From positions 1 through 6,448 of the IMG/VR virus record IMGVR_UViG_2693429637_000008: a DNA stretch of 6,448 nt; one strand, given 5' to 3'. The translations under genes and the position numbers were made by a program. Under the pieces are notes generated by a model that had not been told where the DNA came from, did not search any database, and saw only the letters and a program-made list of their open reading frames with translations. Within the stretch, counting starts at the first letter, position 1; each line of letters starts with the position of its first letter. Source of the DNA: a virus. Taxonomy: Duplodnaviria; Heunggongvirae; Uroviricota; Caudoviricetes. Positions 60 to 6,114 of this stretch are shown piece after piece.

Positions 60-2029
<1,970 letters not shown>

Positions 2030-2080
2030 GTTGATGTCCTTTCTGGTGTGAGAACCTTAAGGAAACAACATGTTGGGTGG

Positions 2081-2130
2081 AGCGGACAATCCAAATGGCG
2101 AATTACCGTCTTATATCACTGGCGCTGACA
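2081..2130. repeat. IS21-family terminal inverted repeat, istA-proximal end (IRL); extent approximate
   Basis: Ends ...GGCGCTGACA at 2121-2130, the reverse complement of the window start with one mismatch in the first 11 nt. Confidence 0.75.
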
Positions 2131-2361
2131 CTCCCTCCGTTGTTGAGAACGGCGACGGTATGCCAGCAACTCAAGAACTCTGGTTCGTATGTTGCGCATA
2201 TCCACGCCGTTAAGCTCAATACCGTCACGGCGCATTACCTCATCCACCACACGCGCATAATTTTCAGCGGTCACGCTGTCCGGTTGCATGGCCTGTTCGT
2301 CAACCTGCTGGCTGATTCCGGCGACGCGGCGGATTAATCCCAGTATTTCGGCTTCTGTCAT
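2116..2361 (-). pseudogene. Small element gene truncated by the IS21 insertion; possibly a head-completion or head-tail connector-like protein (weak guess)
   Basis: ATG at 2361 preceded by a GGGGG Shine-Dalgarno-like run. Codons 1-77 (2131-2361) are native; the last four codons and the stop (2116-2130) lie inside the IS21 terminus. It sits directly downstream of the capsid gene. Confidence 0.5.
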
Positions 2362-2399: not shown

Positions 2400-2613
2400 T
2401 TTTTTGTAAAGAATCTGTCACGCTAAAAGATGTCGAACAAAAATTAACCACAATCATCATCTTTTTTGCATCAACTACATTAAAAACAACAGGTTACACA
2501 CATGATGATGATGACGATAAAACCACAAAAATGCGCTTTTTTCCGCGCCGACCCGCCCCGTGGACAGGCCCCCCCCACCAGGAGGACCCGCAAAAAAGGC
2601 GGCTGCTGCCGCC
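2400..2613 (-). repeat. Intergenic terminator/regulatory cassette, copy 1 (paralogue of 4918-5130)
   Basis: Shares with copy 2 the blocks TTTTTTGTAAA, TCGAACAAAAA, CGCYTTTTTCCGCG, CCGCCCCGTGGACAGGCC, CCCCCACCAGGAG and a terminal hairpin plus A-run, in the same order and spacing (plus-strand reading). Confidence 0.75.
2592..2613 (-). terminator. Rho-independent terminator downstream of the capsid gene
   Basis: Minus strand reads GGCGGC-AGCA-GCCGCC followed by TTTTTTG, 6 nt after the capsid stop codon at 2620-2622. Confidence 0.7.
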
Positions 2614-2619
2614 TTGTTC

Positions 2620-3378
2620 TCATGAAGAAATCGCTCTGACCATTCCGCGATAATCCAGAGCAGCAACGCCAGCATCAATGCGGACCTTCCAGGCCACACC
2701 GTCAACAATAAAGCCCTCCTGCTGCTCAAGGTAAGGCTCGTCATTACCGTCAAGATAAGCCACCTCAATTGTGTCCGTTCCCTGTGCTGAAAGCATGTAC
2801 CATTGCTTATCACTGACTTCATCAAGGCGGGGATCGACAATAATATCCAGTTGTTTGTGGTACGGGTTATATGAACCACTGTTTGTATCGGCACCGAAAG
2901 GCGTGGTTGAGTTAACCATTTGCAACGCTCTGTCTTCCAGAGCCGCAGGAACAAGAAGGAATTTTGGCACAATATTCAGCACCTCACCGTTTTCATCCCT
3001 CTGTGTGCGCATTGCACGGCGTGCAATGCCAAGCCCTGTAGTGCTGACTCCGTTATCAATATCATTTCCGTGTTTTTTGCTGAACAGCGGTATACCGTCA
3101 GAAAGCTTTGTGTTTCCTGTCAGCACCAGATGAACCAGATTACCCACCGTTCTGGCGGCTGCTCGCCCCATTGCCTGTGGGATAACTGTTAACTGATTCA
3201 GGTCATCGTTAATAATCGCCTGTCGGGTAATGCTGAAAATATTTCCGTAAGTTGCCAGCGCGATTGGTTCGCCACGGTCACTGGTGGTGATGTATTTATA
3301 TTCCGCGCCTTCCGGCACTTTGTTTAATGTAGAGAAGCCATTCAGGCCAACACGACGTGCCTCATGGAAGTTTGACAA
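2620..3378 (-). CDS. Major capsid protein (HK97-like), C-terminal ~250 residues; downstream frame of a split protease-capsid gene
   Basis: The 252-aa ORF has no ATG start (the ORF track begins it at a TTG) and is in the -1 frame relative to 3342-4487. Composition and length fit the body of a phage major capsid protein. It is entered from the upstream frame at the A_AAA_AAG heptamer at 3384-3390. Confidence 0.7.
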   Translation of the reverse strand: MSNFHEARRVGLNGFSTLNKVPEGAEYKYITTSDRGEPIALATYGNIFSITRQAIINDDLNQLTVIPQAMGRAAARTVGNLVHLVLTGNTKLSDGIPLFSKKHGNDIDNGVSTTGLGIARRAMRTQRDENGEVLNIVPKFLLVPAALEDRALQMVNSTTPFGADTNSGSYNPYHKQLDIIVDPRLDEVSDKQWYMLSAQGTDTIEVAYLDGNDEPYLEQQEGFIVDGVAWKVRIDAGVAALDYRGMVRAISS

Positions 3379-4487
3379 TGAACCTTTTTTCGTCCACTGG
3401 CGGAACGTTTCGCCGCTGTGTTCACGGATTTTTCAGCACCACCAGCAAGGATATAAGTAAAATCGCTGCTGCTGTGGGTGAATGCCGCGTTTACTATCTG
3501 CGAGCGTGTGCTGTAGCTGCCTGTGCTTATGCCGCGATGGGTTAATGATGCCTGTGCCATATCGAAAAGGCTCATCATGGCGTAAGGGTTGCCGCGTTCT
3601 GCCTGTTCATGTCCCAGACGCGCATTAAGCCCCTGACGCATTGCATCGCCGGTTATGTTGCCGTTATCCGTGTACGCGTAGTAAAGATTTGCGGGGGTGG
3701 TTTTGTTTGTCGGTGTCGATTCTTTACCCATAGTGAGTAAAAGGCGTTCGCGTGCATCCTCAACGCTACAGCCTGAATCAGCAAGACAACTTATAGCCAG
3801 GTCGTTATATCTTCCATTGAACGTGCCAAACAATTCACGTATCCCGTTGAGTCGTTCCTGTTCTCCGCTGCCAGTTTTCTGGCTGATCATGCTTTTAATA
3901 TTTTCCGGCATATTCGAAAAATCTCCGATTCGTTTTGATTCAATTCTGGCCATTGCTGTAATCGCGGGTATAACCTCATCTGCGAAGCCATTAGCCTTAC
4001 ACTCATTGCCATCCATCCAGGTTTCCGCCTCCATCATGGCGGTGATTTCCTGTTTGCTCCTGCCCGTTCTTCCGGCGTAGGTTTCCGCCATCGTGTCGCC
4101 CAGCTTGTCCATCAGGTCAGCAAAGCGGCGAACGTCGCCCGACACTCCGGCAGTAACACCACGGGGGGCATGTATCATCATCATCGCGTTTTCAGGCATA
4201 ACGATGTGATCGCCACACATGGCAATAAACGAGGCCATAGAAGCCGCCATGCCTTCAATGTGTACAATTTTCTTTGCCGGATGATTTTTCAGGGCGTTAT
4301 AGATAGCCAGCCCTTCAAAGATGTCGCCACCAGGTGAATGGATGCGAAGATGGATTTCAGGCACATTACCGCACGCGTTGATCTCGTCAGTAAGTGCCGA
4401 TGCTTTTACACCGTACCCGCCGATCTCGTCATAAATGCGTACATGTACAACATCAGCCATAGCCTTAATGGAAAACCATGTTTTCAT
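3342..4487 (-). CDS. ClpP/S49-like prohead protease fused to a scaffold-like linker and the N-terminal part of the major capsid protein; upstream frame of the split gene
   Basis: 381-aa ORF with AGGAG 7 nt before the ATG at 4487. The N-terminal ~190 aa have serine-protease-like motifs (IHSPGGDIFEGLAIYNAL, HIEGMAASMASFIAMCGDHIVMPENAMMMIHAP). This frame stops 13 codons after the slippery heptamer. Confidence 0.75.
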   Translation of the reverse strand: MKTWFSIKAMADVVHVRIYDEIGGYGVKASALTDEINACGNVPEIHLRIHSPGGDIFEGLAIYNALKNHPAKKIVHIEGMAASMASFIAMCGDHIVMPENAMMMIHAPRGVTAGVSGDVRRFADLMDKLGDTMAETYAGRTGRSKQEITAMMEAETWMDGNECKANGFADEVIPAITAMARIESKRIGDFSNMPENIKSMISQKTGSGEQERLNGIRELFGTFNGRYNDLAISCLADSGCSVEDARERLLLTMGKESTPTNKTTPANLYYAYTDNGNITGDAMRQGLNARLGHEQAERGNPYAMMSLFDMAQASLTHRGISTGSYSTRSQIVNAAFTHSSSDFTYILAGGAEKSVNTAAKRSASGRKKVHCQTSMRHVVLA

Positions 4488-4711
4488 AGCCAGGCTCCTA
4501 ACGTTGCCCTGTACCAGTATTCAACCGCGCTTCTCGCAATCTGCCCTTTCGTGGGTACTGGCATTCCAGGGTGATGACTTTTAATGAACTGCTGATAGCG
4601 TTCGAGCTTCTCCATAGTTCCGGCGTCTATGTGCACTGTTGCACTTTTATCCGGTTTTCTGCTGTTGTTCTCTGGCATAAGTCTGCCTCCGTTATGATTA
4701 ACGGGCATCAT
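4484..4711 (-). CDS. Small ribbon-helix-helix-like DNA-binding protein (putative regulator); true start probably the ATG at 4678
   Basis: GGAGG (plus-strand CCTCC at 4686-4690) lies 7 nt before the internal ATG at 4678, giving a 64-aa product. Predicted strand-helix-helix pattern (ATVHID / MEKLERYQQFIKS / TKGQIARSAVEYWYR). Its stop overlaps the protease start (ATGA at 4484-4487). Confidence 0.6.
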   Translation of the reverse strand: MMPVNHNGGRLMPENNSRKPDKSATVHIDAGTMEKLERYQQFIKSHHPGMPVPTKGQIARSAVEYWYRATLGAWL

Positions 4712-4859
4712 TATTGATCGATAAAACTGGTAAATAAATCATTTTCTATCTAAAAATCAGATTATGTGTTTTCTGATTTTTGTCATACCAGCAAAAGAAT
4801 TGACTAATTATTGCCACGCCAGCACAATTAAGACTCATCATTTCGGTAGTGGCAGTATC

Positions 4860-4876
4860 CTTTGTCGCTGACAAAG
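4860..4876. promoter_or_regulatory. Perfect 7-bp inverted repeat with 3-bp spacer, CTTTGTC-gct-GACAAAG; candidate operator or hairpin
   Basis: Exact dyad symmetry seen in the sequence, located in the leader upstream of the RHH-capsid operon. Confidence 0.4.
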
Positions 4877-4910
4877 CGCCTCCGGTGGCACCATCGGGGC
4901 GCTTTTTTTT
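4876..4910 (+). terminator. GC stem-loop followed by T8 on the plus strand; terminator-like, possibly bidirectional attenuator
   Basis: GCGCC (4876-4880) pairs with GGCGC (4898-4902), followed by TTTTTTTT (4903-4910). On the minus strand the same stem is followed only by a weak TTTGTC. No plus-strand protein gene ends here. Confidence 0.45.
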
Positions 4911-4917
4911 GCGCCTG

Positions 4918-5130
4918 TTTTTTGTAAATGCTTTCGGGAACGTTCCGGCGTCGAACAAAAAACAACCTAATTCGACACTAAAAATTTTTATTTTGCCATA
5001 TATCAATAACTTAAACTGGTGGTGATGGTGACATAAAAATCAAAAAATACGCCTTTTTCCGCGAACCGCCCGCCCCGTGGACAGGCCACCCCCACCAGGA
5101 GTACCTACAAAAAAGCCGGATTGCTCCGGC
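4918..5130 (-). repeat. Intergenic terminator/regulatory cassette, copy 2 (paralogue of 2400-2613)
   Basis: Same ordered conserved blocks as copy 1. Also contains a match to the IHF-site consensus as I recall it (TATCAATAACTTA, 5001-5013). Confidence 0.75.
5108..5130 (-). terminator. Rho-independent terminator downstream of the SSB-like gene
   Basis: Minus strand reads GCCGGA-GCAA-TCCGGC followed by TTTTTTG, 17 nt after the stop at 5147-5149. The stem differs from the copy-1 terminator by compensatory changes. Confidence 0.7.
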
Positions 5131-5811: not shown

Positions 5812-5855
5812 AGGCTTTACCTCACAGCAATAAAATAAAATTTTTGCATTTTAAC

Positions 5856-6086
5856 CCTTCACCTGTTCACCTTTTGCAATTTTCCCTTTTTATTCATGAT
5901 GTTAATGGGTTAACAGTTTCACAAAAACTATTCACCAACTGTTCACCACTGTTCACCCTTAAAGCTCAATAAAGAATCAAAAAGGTGAACAGTGAATAGT
6001 TTGGTGAACAGTTCATAAATAACTGTTCACCCTATAATATACTGATATAAAAGACATTTATTGCAGGGTGAACAGTGGTGAACAGT
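5856..6086. repeat. Iteron array: putative replication origin of P4 alpha-protein type
   Basis: Direct copies of (AC)TGTTCACC at 5864, 5940, 5950 and 6024, with variants CCTTCACC at 5856 and TATTCACC at 5929. Inverted copies GGTGAACA(GT) at 5984, 6003, 6067 and 6077. Interspersed AT-rich tracts and a perfect TATAAT at 6033-6038. Confidence 0.75.
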
Positions 6087-6114
6087 TATTCCATAAGTTT
6101 AATTTTTTCCATCG

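What the first reader, a model, noticed from the sequence alone, without database searches (positions are those of the whole stretch)
4712..4917. Structured ~200-bp leader upstream of the RHH-capsid operon, with a possible antisense small RNA
Between cassette copy 2 and the RHH gene lie a perfect dyad (CTTTGTC-gct-GACAAAG, 4860-4876) and an adjacent GC stem-loop followed by T8 on the plus strand (4876-4910). A plus-strand promoter-like pair (TTGACT at 4800-4805, 17-bp spacer, CACAAT at 4823-4828) would start a ~75-nt plus-strand RNA ending at that terminator, antisense to the operon leader. On the minus strand the same stem followed by TTTGTC could act as an attenuator. Copy 1 of the cassette has no counterpart of this insert, so the capsid operon may carry an extra layer of control.
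Basis: inference. Interest (0 to 1): 0.5.

Follow-up and report, generated by a model that had tools for sequence, protein, structure and literature searches.

The report
Terminator and candidate small RNA beside cos
The stretch is the non-coding spacer between a phage-satellite's DNA-packaging (cos) site and its capsid operon; it holds a real, conserved transcription terminator and possibly a ~75-base RNA gene on the opposite strand, but it is probably not the capsid operon's leader.

Summary
Only the GC hairpin (4876-4902) with T8 (4903-4910) is clearly non-random and conserved. The dyad at 4860-4876 is no rarer than chance and is lost in the commonest related haplotype.

The window is part of an E. 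coli-type phage-inducible chromosomal island (PICI). Relatives sit inside a helper prophage's terminase gene. The "cassette" copies are the two lambdoid cos sites already known for this family.

The hairpin is a bidirectional intrinsic terminator that favours the + strand: it is more stable there, its wobble pairs are G·U on +, and the T-run is 6-9 long. The + strand promoter-like pair TTGACn-17-CAnnAT is the best promoter match at the same position in every haplotype. Together they delimit a ~75-nt orphan transcription unit that always accompanies the helper-type cos cassette.

The capsid operon's own promoter most likely lies further downstream at 4710-4738, because conservation across PICI types ends exactly after its -10 hexamer. 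The structured part is therefore upstream of the operon transcript, not in a leader.

No transcript evidence, Rfam match or convincing target was found. Verdict: a real terminator, a plausible but unproven small RNA, and an unlikely attenuator. Interest is modest.

The parts
4876..4902 (+). GC-rich hairpin of an intrinsic terminator. It is bidirectional but better on the + strand.
   Evidence: The + strand stem is -18.6 kcal/mol and the - strand stem -14.5. In all 9 stem variants the + strand is 3-7 kcal/mol more stable, because the invariant wobble pairs are G·U on + and C·A on -. The loop varies while the stem is kept.
4903..4910 (+). T8 tract, the U-tail of the + strand terminator. It reads as A8 on the satellite's sense strand.
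   Evidence: The run is 6-9 T in all A/B-type relatives. Tail score is -5.77 on + against -3.86 for TTTGTCAG on -.
4800..4828 (+). Sigma-70-like promoter TTGACT-17-CACAAT for the candidate small RNA.
   Evidence: It is the top + strand weight-matrix hit at the same position in all A/B haplotypes tested (12.1 bits in the window, 9.9-10.6 in the others). The TTGAC core and the 17-bp spacer are invariant while the flanks and spacer bases vary.
4835..4910 (+). Candidate ~75-nt small RNA. The start is inferred at about 7 nt after the -10; the end is the U-tract.
   Evidence: Fold z = -4.1. The covariance model finds one copy per element and none elsewhere. The body has 0 of 47 polymorphic columns within the B lineage, against 10-28% in the flanks, yet differs 34% between A and B. 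There is no transcript evidence.
4860..4876 (.). Perfect dyad CTTTGTC-gct-GACAAAG, probably not functional in its own right.
   Evidence: Present. Not rarer than chance. Broken in the main B haplotype. Not used in the minimum-free-energy fold.
4752..4781 (.). Inverted repeat AAAAATCAGA-N10-TCTGATTTTT, an operator candidate upstream of the late promoter.
   Evidence: The core AATCAGA-N10-TCTGATT is kept in the B type, and AATCTGATT is shared with type D PICIs.
4710..4738 (-). Proposed late-operon promoter: -35 TTTATT, 17-bp spacer, -10 AATAAT.
   Evidence: It is the best conserved sense-strand weight-matrix hit in every type (8.16 bits). Conservation across the A, B, D, L112 and L115 types stops immediately after AATAATG. 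The assignment is an inference.
4676..4704 (-). Short 5' UTR: hairpin CCGTTA-ATCA-TAACGG (4689-4704) abutting the SD GGAGG, then the ATG at 4678-4676.
   Evidence: NCBI's annotation pipeline (PGAP) calls the homologue as 64 aa from this ATG.
4484..4678 (-). Small gene (64 aa, phrog_4934), first gene of the capsid operon. The RHH fold is unconfirmed.
   Evidence: There is no Pfam hit. The single-sequence AlphaFold2 model has pLDDT 67 and two helices. There are no PDB matches.
4953..5113 (-).
   Evidence: About 90% identical to phages 1720a-02 and CP-1639 just upstream of their small terminase gene. Aligns to the lambda end junction at ACG|GGGCGG...CGCGG.
5109..5130 (-). Intrinsic terminator after ssb: GCCGGAGCAATCCGGC followed by T6.
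2400..2615 (-).
   Evidence: Two cos sites are described for EcCICFT073 (PMC6092414, PMC6739421).

Best explanation
The region is the intergenic spacer of a PICI-type phage satellite, lying between its helper-type cos site and its late (small gene plus capsid) operon.

The hairpin with its T-run is a genuine Rho-independent terminator that works mainly on the + strand, which is antisense to all satellite genes. Together with the conserved TTGACn-17-CAnnAT promoter about 75 nt upstream, it forms a small self-contained + strand transcription unit. This candidate ~75-nt RNA travels as one module with the helper-type cos cassette.

Plus-strand transcripts are stopped at the T-run before they enter cos. 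The same stem, with an A-tract before it and TTTG/TTTTAC after it, can also act as a weaker second terminator for sense transcripts that escape the ssb terminator.

The capsid operon is fired from its own promoter at 4710-4738. The structured part is therefore upstream of the operon transcript, not inside it.

Shown: the anatomy, the conservation, the strand asymmetry and the linkage to cos. Inferred: that the promoter fires, that the RNA accumulates, and what it does.
For: Context. The element is a PICI. Relatives are embedded in a prophage terminase gene, as described in PMC10111431. The cassette is a cos site.

Terminator. Stem energies and tail scores favour the + strand. Two invariant wobble pairs, and two natural variants, are G·U on + only. 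The T-run is kept at 6-9.

Promoter. It is the top + strand hit at an identical position with a constant 17-bp spacer in all haplotypes tested, although the body has indels.

Module behaviour. All 45 A/B-type loci carry the helper-type cosB, whatever the integrase (100%, 38% or 22% identity). There is a single copy per element. The RNA body is invariant within the B lineage but 34% diverged between A and B.

Late promoter further downstream. The shared ~70-nt block ends after AATAATG in all types, and L115 has the ssb terminator fused directly to it.

Position. Related PICIs carry non-homologous terminators at the same place.
Against: - No transcript data were available.
- The promoter match is only 8/12 in the commonest haplotype, and a 9/12 match is common by chance.
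- No hairpin other than the terminator is conserved, and there is no true covariation.
- One variant (L009 group) puts a C·A mismatch on the + strand, so the wobble asymmetry stands at 4 to 1 and is not statistically strong.
- Type D relatives have a sense-only terminator at this place. The feature common to the family is therefore sense termination, not an antisense RNA.
- There is no Rfam family and no outstanding trans target.
Confidence: 0.45

Rival explanations
1. The hairpin is only a bidirectional terminator or insulator. It closes the cos-containing gap and keeps early (pri-ssb) or helper read-through transcription out of the late promoter region. The + strand promoter-like pair is fortuitous AT-rich sequence, and any short RNA is a by-product without function.
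For: - Terminators occupy the same position in non-homologous form in type D (sense-only) and Nissle-type PICIs.
- The minus-strand stem (-12.8 to -14.5 kcal/mol) and tail (about -4) are still within the usual terminator range.
- The promoter match is not beyond chance and is weaker in type B.
- No structure or seed is conserved in the RNA body between A and B.
Against: - The T-run and the G·U pattern are optimised for the + strand, not the sense strand.
- The TTGAC core and the 17-bp spacing are kept through 30-40% local divergence.
- The RNA body has 0 of 47 polymorphic sites within the B lineage while the flanks vary.
- A strong ssb terminator already lies upstream of cos.
- L112 has only a remnant of the terminator at this position and L115 no separate one, so a second terminator is not essential.
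Confidence: 0.3
2. The ~200 bp form the structured leader of the capsid operon. The minus-strand stem with TTTGTC attenuates it. The + strand RNA is a cis-antisense regulator of that leader, and the dyad may be an operator for the small RHH-like protein.
For: - In helper-embedded copies, helper late transcription should read through the satellite in the sense direction (PMC10111431). Sense RNA complementary to the + strand RNA can therefore exist.
- The hairpin can terminate weakly on the minus strand.
- GGCGC-A8-GCGCC offers a small alternative pairing.
Against: - The conserved late block and its -10 lie further downstream.
- L115 shows that the operon needs only about 110 bp after a terminator.
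- The minus-strand stem carries two mismatches and a poor U-tract.
- The alternative pairing is only 5 bp against 11 bp.
- The dyad is absent from the major haplotype.
- The RHH fold is unconfirmed.
Confidence: 0.12
3. The module works at the DNA level as part of the packaging signal. It would be an extension of cosB, for example a binding or bending site for small terminase, IHF or a satellite redirecting protein, rather than a transcription signal.
For: - The module is strictly linked to one cos type in 45 loci, irrespective of integrase.
- It starts right where homology to the phage cosB ends.
- It contains an A8 tract and the palindrome GGAACGTTCC at 4937-4946.
Against: - The helper phages with this cosB go straight into their small terminase gene and lack the module.
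- The imperfect positions in the stem are transitions that keep RNA pairing on one strand. That fits an RNA hairpin better than a protein site.
- The loop is free to vary.
Confidence: 0.08
4. The region encodes a small protein or a type I toxin-antitoxin pair. The candidates are a sense 31-codon ORF at 4841..4746 and a + strand 35-codon ORF at 4764..4871.
For: The sense ORF is open with the same stop codon in 4 of 5 haplotypes, and its middle is hydrophobic in the window version.
Against: - pN/pS is 1.0-1.4.
- The commonest B haplotype has a premature stop.
- There is no Shine-Dalgarno sequence at a usable distance.
- The + strand ORF is cut to 11-28 codons in the other haplotypes.
Confidence: 0.03

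Closest known systems
EcCICFT073-family Gram-negative PICIs and helper-embedded PICIs (PMC6092414, PMC6739421, PMC10111431)
   Same: Same gene order: int-alpA-...-pri-ori-ssb-cos-small gene-capsid-cos. Two cos sites. Relatives are integrated in a lambdoid terminase gene.
   Different: The passages of those papers that I searched describe no RNA gene or terminator module beside cos. This island has one helper-type and one PICI-type cosB, and a ClpP-protease/capsid fusion gene instead of lambda E/D-like genes.
SviR, the trans-acting sRNA of the Vibrio satellite PLE (bioRxiv 10.1101/2022.04.08.487710)
   Same: A small RNA gene carried by a phage satellite. If the present RNA is real, it would be the analogous case for E. 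coli PICIs.
   Different: There is no sequence or Rfam relation. Expression and targets of SviR are shown experimentally, whereas nothing is shown here.
Short Hfq-bound sRNAs of lambdoid prophages (AgvB/AsxR, HnrS; PMC4104026, PMC13502914)
   Same: Short orphan units in mobile DNA. They have a strong terminator, a conserved 3' part and a variable 5' part.
   Different: Those lie in the moron site after PR' or within prophage late genes. They have Rfam models that do not match here. The sequence is absent from the supplement of PMC4104026.
Lambda OOP and P22 sar cis-antisense RNAs (from general knowledge)
   Same: RNAs of about 70-80 nt with their own promoter and an intrinsic terminator, transcribed against the flow of phage genes.
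   Different: OOP and sar overlap a defined coding or leader target. Here the only overlapping sense RNA would be read-through across cos, because the operon promoter seems to lie further downstream.
Bidirectional intrinsic terminators (from general knowledge)
   Same: A GC stem flanked by an A-tract on one side and a T-tract on the other.
   Different: These usually sit between convergent genes. Here all annotated genes run one way, so the stronger direction has no annotated gene to terminate.

Membership tests
Rho-independent (intrinsic) terminator | GC-rich stem-loop | tested here: met
   An 11-12 bp stem, -18.6 kcal/mol on the + strand. Conserved in about 45 loci with a variable loop.
Rho-independent (intrinsic) terminator | U-tract immediately 3' of the stem | tested here: met
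   The + strand has T8 (T6-9 in relatives). The - strand has only TTTG or TTTTAC.
Rho-independent (intrinsic) terminator | Transcripts actually end there | not testable with these tools
   Needs Term-seq, 3' RACE or a reporter assay.
Small regulatory RNA gene (trans- or cis-acting) | Own promoter at a fixed distance from the terminator | tested here: inconclusive
   It is the top weight-matrix hit, conserved in position and with a constant 17-bp spacer. It matches only 8-9 of 12 consensus positions, which is not beyond chance.
Small regulatory RNA gene (trans- or cis-acting) | Conserved structure or seed with covariation | tested here: not met
   Only the terminator is a consensus structure, and upstream pairings shift register between haplotypes. 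The 5' part is 34% diverged between A and B, though invariant within B.
Small regulatory RNA gene (trans- or cis-acting) | Match to a described RNA family | tested here: not met
   No Rfam hit near any gathering score; the only hits are generic terminator look-alikes.
Small regulatory RNA gene (trans- or cis-acting) | Detectable transcript and a target | not testable with these tools
   No expression data were available. A duplex scan of the satellite plus helper DNA gave no outstanding non-self target.
Transcription attenuator in an operon leader | Lies between the operon promoter and the first gene | tested here: inconclusive
   The conserved block and the -10-like AATAAT place the promoter at 4710-4738, downstream of the hairpin on the satellite's sense strand. 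This is an inference without transcription-start data.
Transcription attenuator in an operon leader | Competing antiterminator structure or sensing element | tested here: not met
   The only alternative is a 5-bp GGCGC/GCGCC pairing. There is no leader peptide and no riboswitch hit.
Lambdoid cos site (the 'cassette') | cosN core and flanks homologous to phage cos, positioned upstream of the small terminase gene in phages | tested here: met
Gram-negative PICI / helper-embedded PICI | int, alpA, primase, ori, cos and a capsid-type late gene, unidirectional, about 10 kb; the embedded type lies inside a helper late gene | tested here: met
   Seen in L001 and L002. The window itself holds the primase end, ori iterons, ssb, cos and capsid gene. 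The att sites and integrase of the window's own copy were not seen.
Ribbon-helix-helix DNA-binding protein (the small gene) | Beta-alpha-alpha fold or a match to an RHH family | tested here: inconclusive
   No Pfam family. It matches phrog_4934, of unknown function. AlphaFold2 gives two helices at pLDDT 67 with no strand in the monomer. There are no PDB hits by sequence or fold.

The most novel reading that the evidence does not exclude
The ~75-nt + strand RNA is a real, stable regulator carried by the cos cassette of E. coli/Shigella PICIs. It would exist as distinct alleles (A and B types, with a variable 5' part and a conserved 3' part) and would act on helper-phage, satellite read-through or host transcripts. 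That would make it the first small-RNA regulator described for Gram-negative PICIs, comparable to SviR in the Vibrio PLE satellite.
Probability: 0.2. Interest if true: 0.6.

Novelty: new member of a known kind. Interest (0 to 1): 0.3.

Why it matters
PICIs spread virulence and defence genes, and how they time capsid and packaging gene expression relative to their helper is poorly known. If the small RNA is real, RNA-level control would be added to satellite-helper conflict in enterobacteria.

The element is very common. The exact small protein is found in thousands of assemblies, and the region is in 144 of 5426 complete E. coli genomes.

Even the sober reading is useful for annotating these islands. 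It gives a terminator module linked to cos and a late promoter mapped to a 30-bp window, and it corrects the reading of the two 'cassettes' as regulatory units: they are cos sites.

Tried and rejected
- Rfam scans of the whole window and of the region alone, in two haplotypes, gave nothing near any gathering score.
- Protein-coding and toxin-antitoxin readings were rejected. ORFs on both strands are not conserved, pN/pS is about 1, and there is no Shine-Dalgarno sequence.
- A trans-target scan with duplexfold over the satellite plus helper DNA gave a best non-self hit of about -40 kcal/mol inside a terminase fragment. That is not at a start codon and is unremarkable for 3650 windows.
- The covariance model R1 found no extra copies in 36 loci.
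- The fold of the small protein stayed unresolved: no Pfam family and a PHROG family of unknown function; no PDB match by sequence or fold; a low-confidence AlphaFold2 model.
- The genome-contig scans were uninformative. The protein scan found no relative, and the 18-mer scan gave only matches in unrelated taxa, none of them enterobacterial.
- Neither the A nor the B hairpin sequence occurs in the supplements of the EHEC Hfq-crosslinking paper. The EHEC sRNA papers do not place an sRNA here.
- A pR'/Q-type antitermination cassette on the sense strand was considered. No sense promoter fits between cosB and the hairpin in this type, so the idea was dropped.

Full report
**What the window is.** The ORFs and Pfam hits show, all on the minus strand: the end of a P4/D5-type primase, an origin made of GGTGAACAG iterons, a small ORF, ssb, the region in question, a 64-aa gene, and a ClpP-protease/major-capsid fusion gene that is frameshifted here. 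After these come a second non-coding repeat, a small ORF, and an IS21.

The same arrangement occurs in 144 of 5426 complete E. coli genomes at about 80% identity over the region. In E. coli O157:H7 3-5-1 and SCU-171 the ~10-kb element also carries int, alpA, a BRO-domain gene and an icd-like gene. There it lies inside the large terminase gene of a lambdoid prophage. This is a Gram-negative PICI of the helper-embedded kind described in PMC10111431.

**The 'cassette' is cos.** Window 4953-5113 is about 90% identical to phages 1720a-02 and CP-1639 immediately upstream of their small terminase gene, and one phage record starts inside it. Aligned with the joined ends of lambda, it shares ACG|GGGCGG...CGCGG and the cosQ-like GGGTCCT..CCGGTG.

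Two cos sites per island are already documented for EcCICFT073. Copy 2, next to ssb, has the helper-type cosB. Copy 1 has a cosB like that of the Nissle island.

**Checking the observation.** All motifs are at the stated coordinates.
- The hairpin with T8 is a strong terminator.
- The 7-bp dyad is not unusual: 7 such loci in the window, 14 counts against 4.6 +/- 2.6 in shuffles.
- The 9/12 promoter match is not unusual either: 3 found against 5.1 expected.

**Comparative data.** An exact-match scan of the viral contig collection gave 35 loci. A second scan of the metagenome collection and fetches from E. coli genomes added more. After removing duplicates there are 25 versions of the region, falling into a window type (A), a common type (B) and intermediates.

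- *Hairpin.* The stem and the T-run (6-9 T) are kept and the loop differs. The stem is 3-7 kcal/mol more stable on the + strand in all nine variants, because its two invariant non-Watson-Crick pairs are G·U on + and C·A on -. Two natural variants add further G·U pairs on +, and one variant goes the other way.
- *Tails.* The + tail scores -5.4 to -5.8 and the - tail about -4. The element is thus bidirectional but built for the + strand.
- *Dyad.* It is destroyed in type B, and the + strand fold does not use it.
- *Upstream pairings.* They shift register between haplotypes, so there is no real covariation.

**The promoter-like pair.** With a simple sigma-70 weight matrix, TTGACn-17-CAnnAT is the best + strand hit at the same position in every A/B haplotype tested (12.1 bits in the window, 9.9-10.6 elsewhere). 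The TTGAC core and the 17-bp spacing are unchanged although the neighbouring bases differ and the RNA body has indels. In type B it matches only 8 of 12 positions and fails the stricter tool.

Within the B lineage the 47 columns of the putative RNA body have no polymorphism, while the flanks have 10-28%. Between A and B the body differs by 34%. The pattern suggests distinct alleles of something constrained, but the sequences are not independent samples.

**Where the operon promoter is.** Other PICI types carry the same ~70-nt block directly upstream of the small gene. Conservation across all types ends exactly after AATAATG, beyond which the leaders differ with the gene type.

The best conserved sense-strand match is -35 TTTAT(T/C), a 17-bp spacer and -10 AATAAT, at window 4710-4738. 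In metagenome relative L115 the ssb terminator is fused directly to this block with no cos between them. The late operon therefore most likely starts about 25-30 nt before its Shine-Dalgarno sequence. The 4860-4910 structures are then upstream of the promoter, not in a leader. The inverted repeat at 4752-4781 sits where an operator or activator site would be expected.

**What sits at this position in relatives.**
- Type D islands have a sense-only terminator, GCCGGAttctcTCCGGC followed by T6.
- The Nissle island has a non-homologous A6-hairpin-T4.
- L112 has only a remnant.

A terminator after cosB is thus common but not universal, and only the A/B and Nissle types are competent on the + strand. 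The A/B module occurs in all 45 loci that carry the helper-type cosB, whatever the integrase type. It occurs once per element.

**Mechanism proposed.** Plus-strand transcription starts at about 4835 and ends at the T-run, giving a ~75-nt RNA and keeping antisense transcription out of cos. The same stem gives a weaker second stop for sense transcripts. The late operon has its own promoter further downstream. I put 0.45 on this.

The rivals and their weights are:
- 0.30 on a terminator or insulator with no meaningful RNA;
- 0.08 on a DNA-level packaging role;
- 0.03 on a small protein.

**What failed.**
- No Rfam family matched.
- No conserved ORF was found, and pN/pS is about 1.
- No convincing trans target emerged.
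- The sequence is not in the supplements of the published EHEC sRNA survey that were searched.
- The RHH fold of the small protein could not be confirmed.

**Novelty and interest.** The island type, its two cos sites and intrinsic terminators are all known. An sRNA gene beside cos in an E. coli PICI is not mentioned in the passages of the papers I searched, and the closest precedent is SviR of the Vibrio PLE satellite. Without expression data this is a plausible new member of a known kind, of modest interest.

Noticed in passing
window 2400-2615 and 4953-5113: The two repeats are lambdoid cos sites with different cosB parts. The one next to ssb is about 90% identical to helper-type phages. The other resembles the cosB of the Nissle/EcCICFT073-family island.
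   Followed up: yes
window 2620-4487 (-): The ClpP-protease/major-capsid fusion gene is split by a frameshift into 381-aa and 252-aa ORFs that overlap at 3342-3378. Relatives (L001, L147, L151) have an intact gene of 626-629 aa, while L145 and L149 share the split.
   Followed up: partly
window 60-2361: An IS21-family element (istA 857-2029, istB 60-860) lies next to a phrog_1561 gene that is 81 aa here against 93 aa in relatives. The insertion probably truncated it.
   Followed up: no
window 4752-4781: Inverted repeat AAAAATCAGA-N10-TCTGATTTTT, about 40-70 bp upstream of the proposed late promoter's -10 hexamer. Its core is kept in type B, and AATCTGATT is shared with type D islands. It is a better operator candidate than the dyad in the finding.
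   Followed up: partly
window 4714-4742 (+): A second + strand promoter-like pair, TTGATC-17-AATCAT (9.4 bits), overlaps the proposed late promoter back to back. It is conserved in most A/B haplotypes tested. Transcripts from it would also end at the T8 terminator.
   Followed up: no
L115 (metagenome) and L041/L043 (type D islands): In L115 the ssb terminator is joined directly to the late-promoter block with no cos between them. In type D a near-copy of the ssb terminator follows cos. The cos cassette therefore looks like an insertion into an older terminator-promoter junction.
   Followed up: partly
L005 8727-8830 (Nissle island): Upstream of the small gene there is a perfect TATAAT, followed within the leader by a hairpin with U6 just before the Shine-Dalgarno sequence. 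This is a possible attenuator or antitermination-dependent leader in that island type.
   Followed up: no
window 5850-6100: Origin-like array of direct and inverted GGTGAACAG iterons downstream of the primase gene. It produced spurious microRNA hits in Rfam.
   Followed up: no
L145-L152: The exact 64-aa small protein of the window is indexed in 3780 blocks of the assembly collection. Seven full-length copies of the intergenic region differ from the window at most by one SNP (4747). The window type is absent from the complete E. coli RefSeq set, so the source may be a heavily sequenced close relative such as Shigella; this was not verified.
   Followed up: partly
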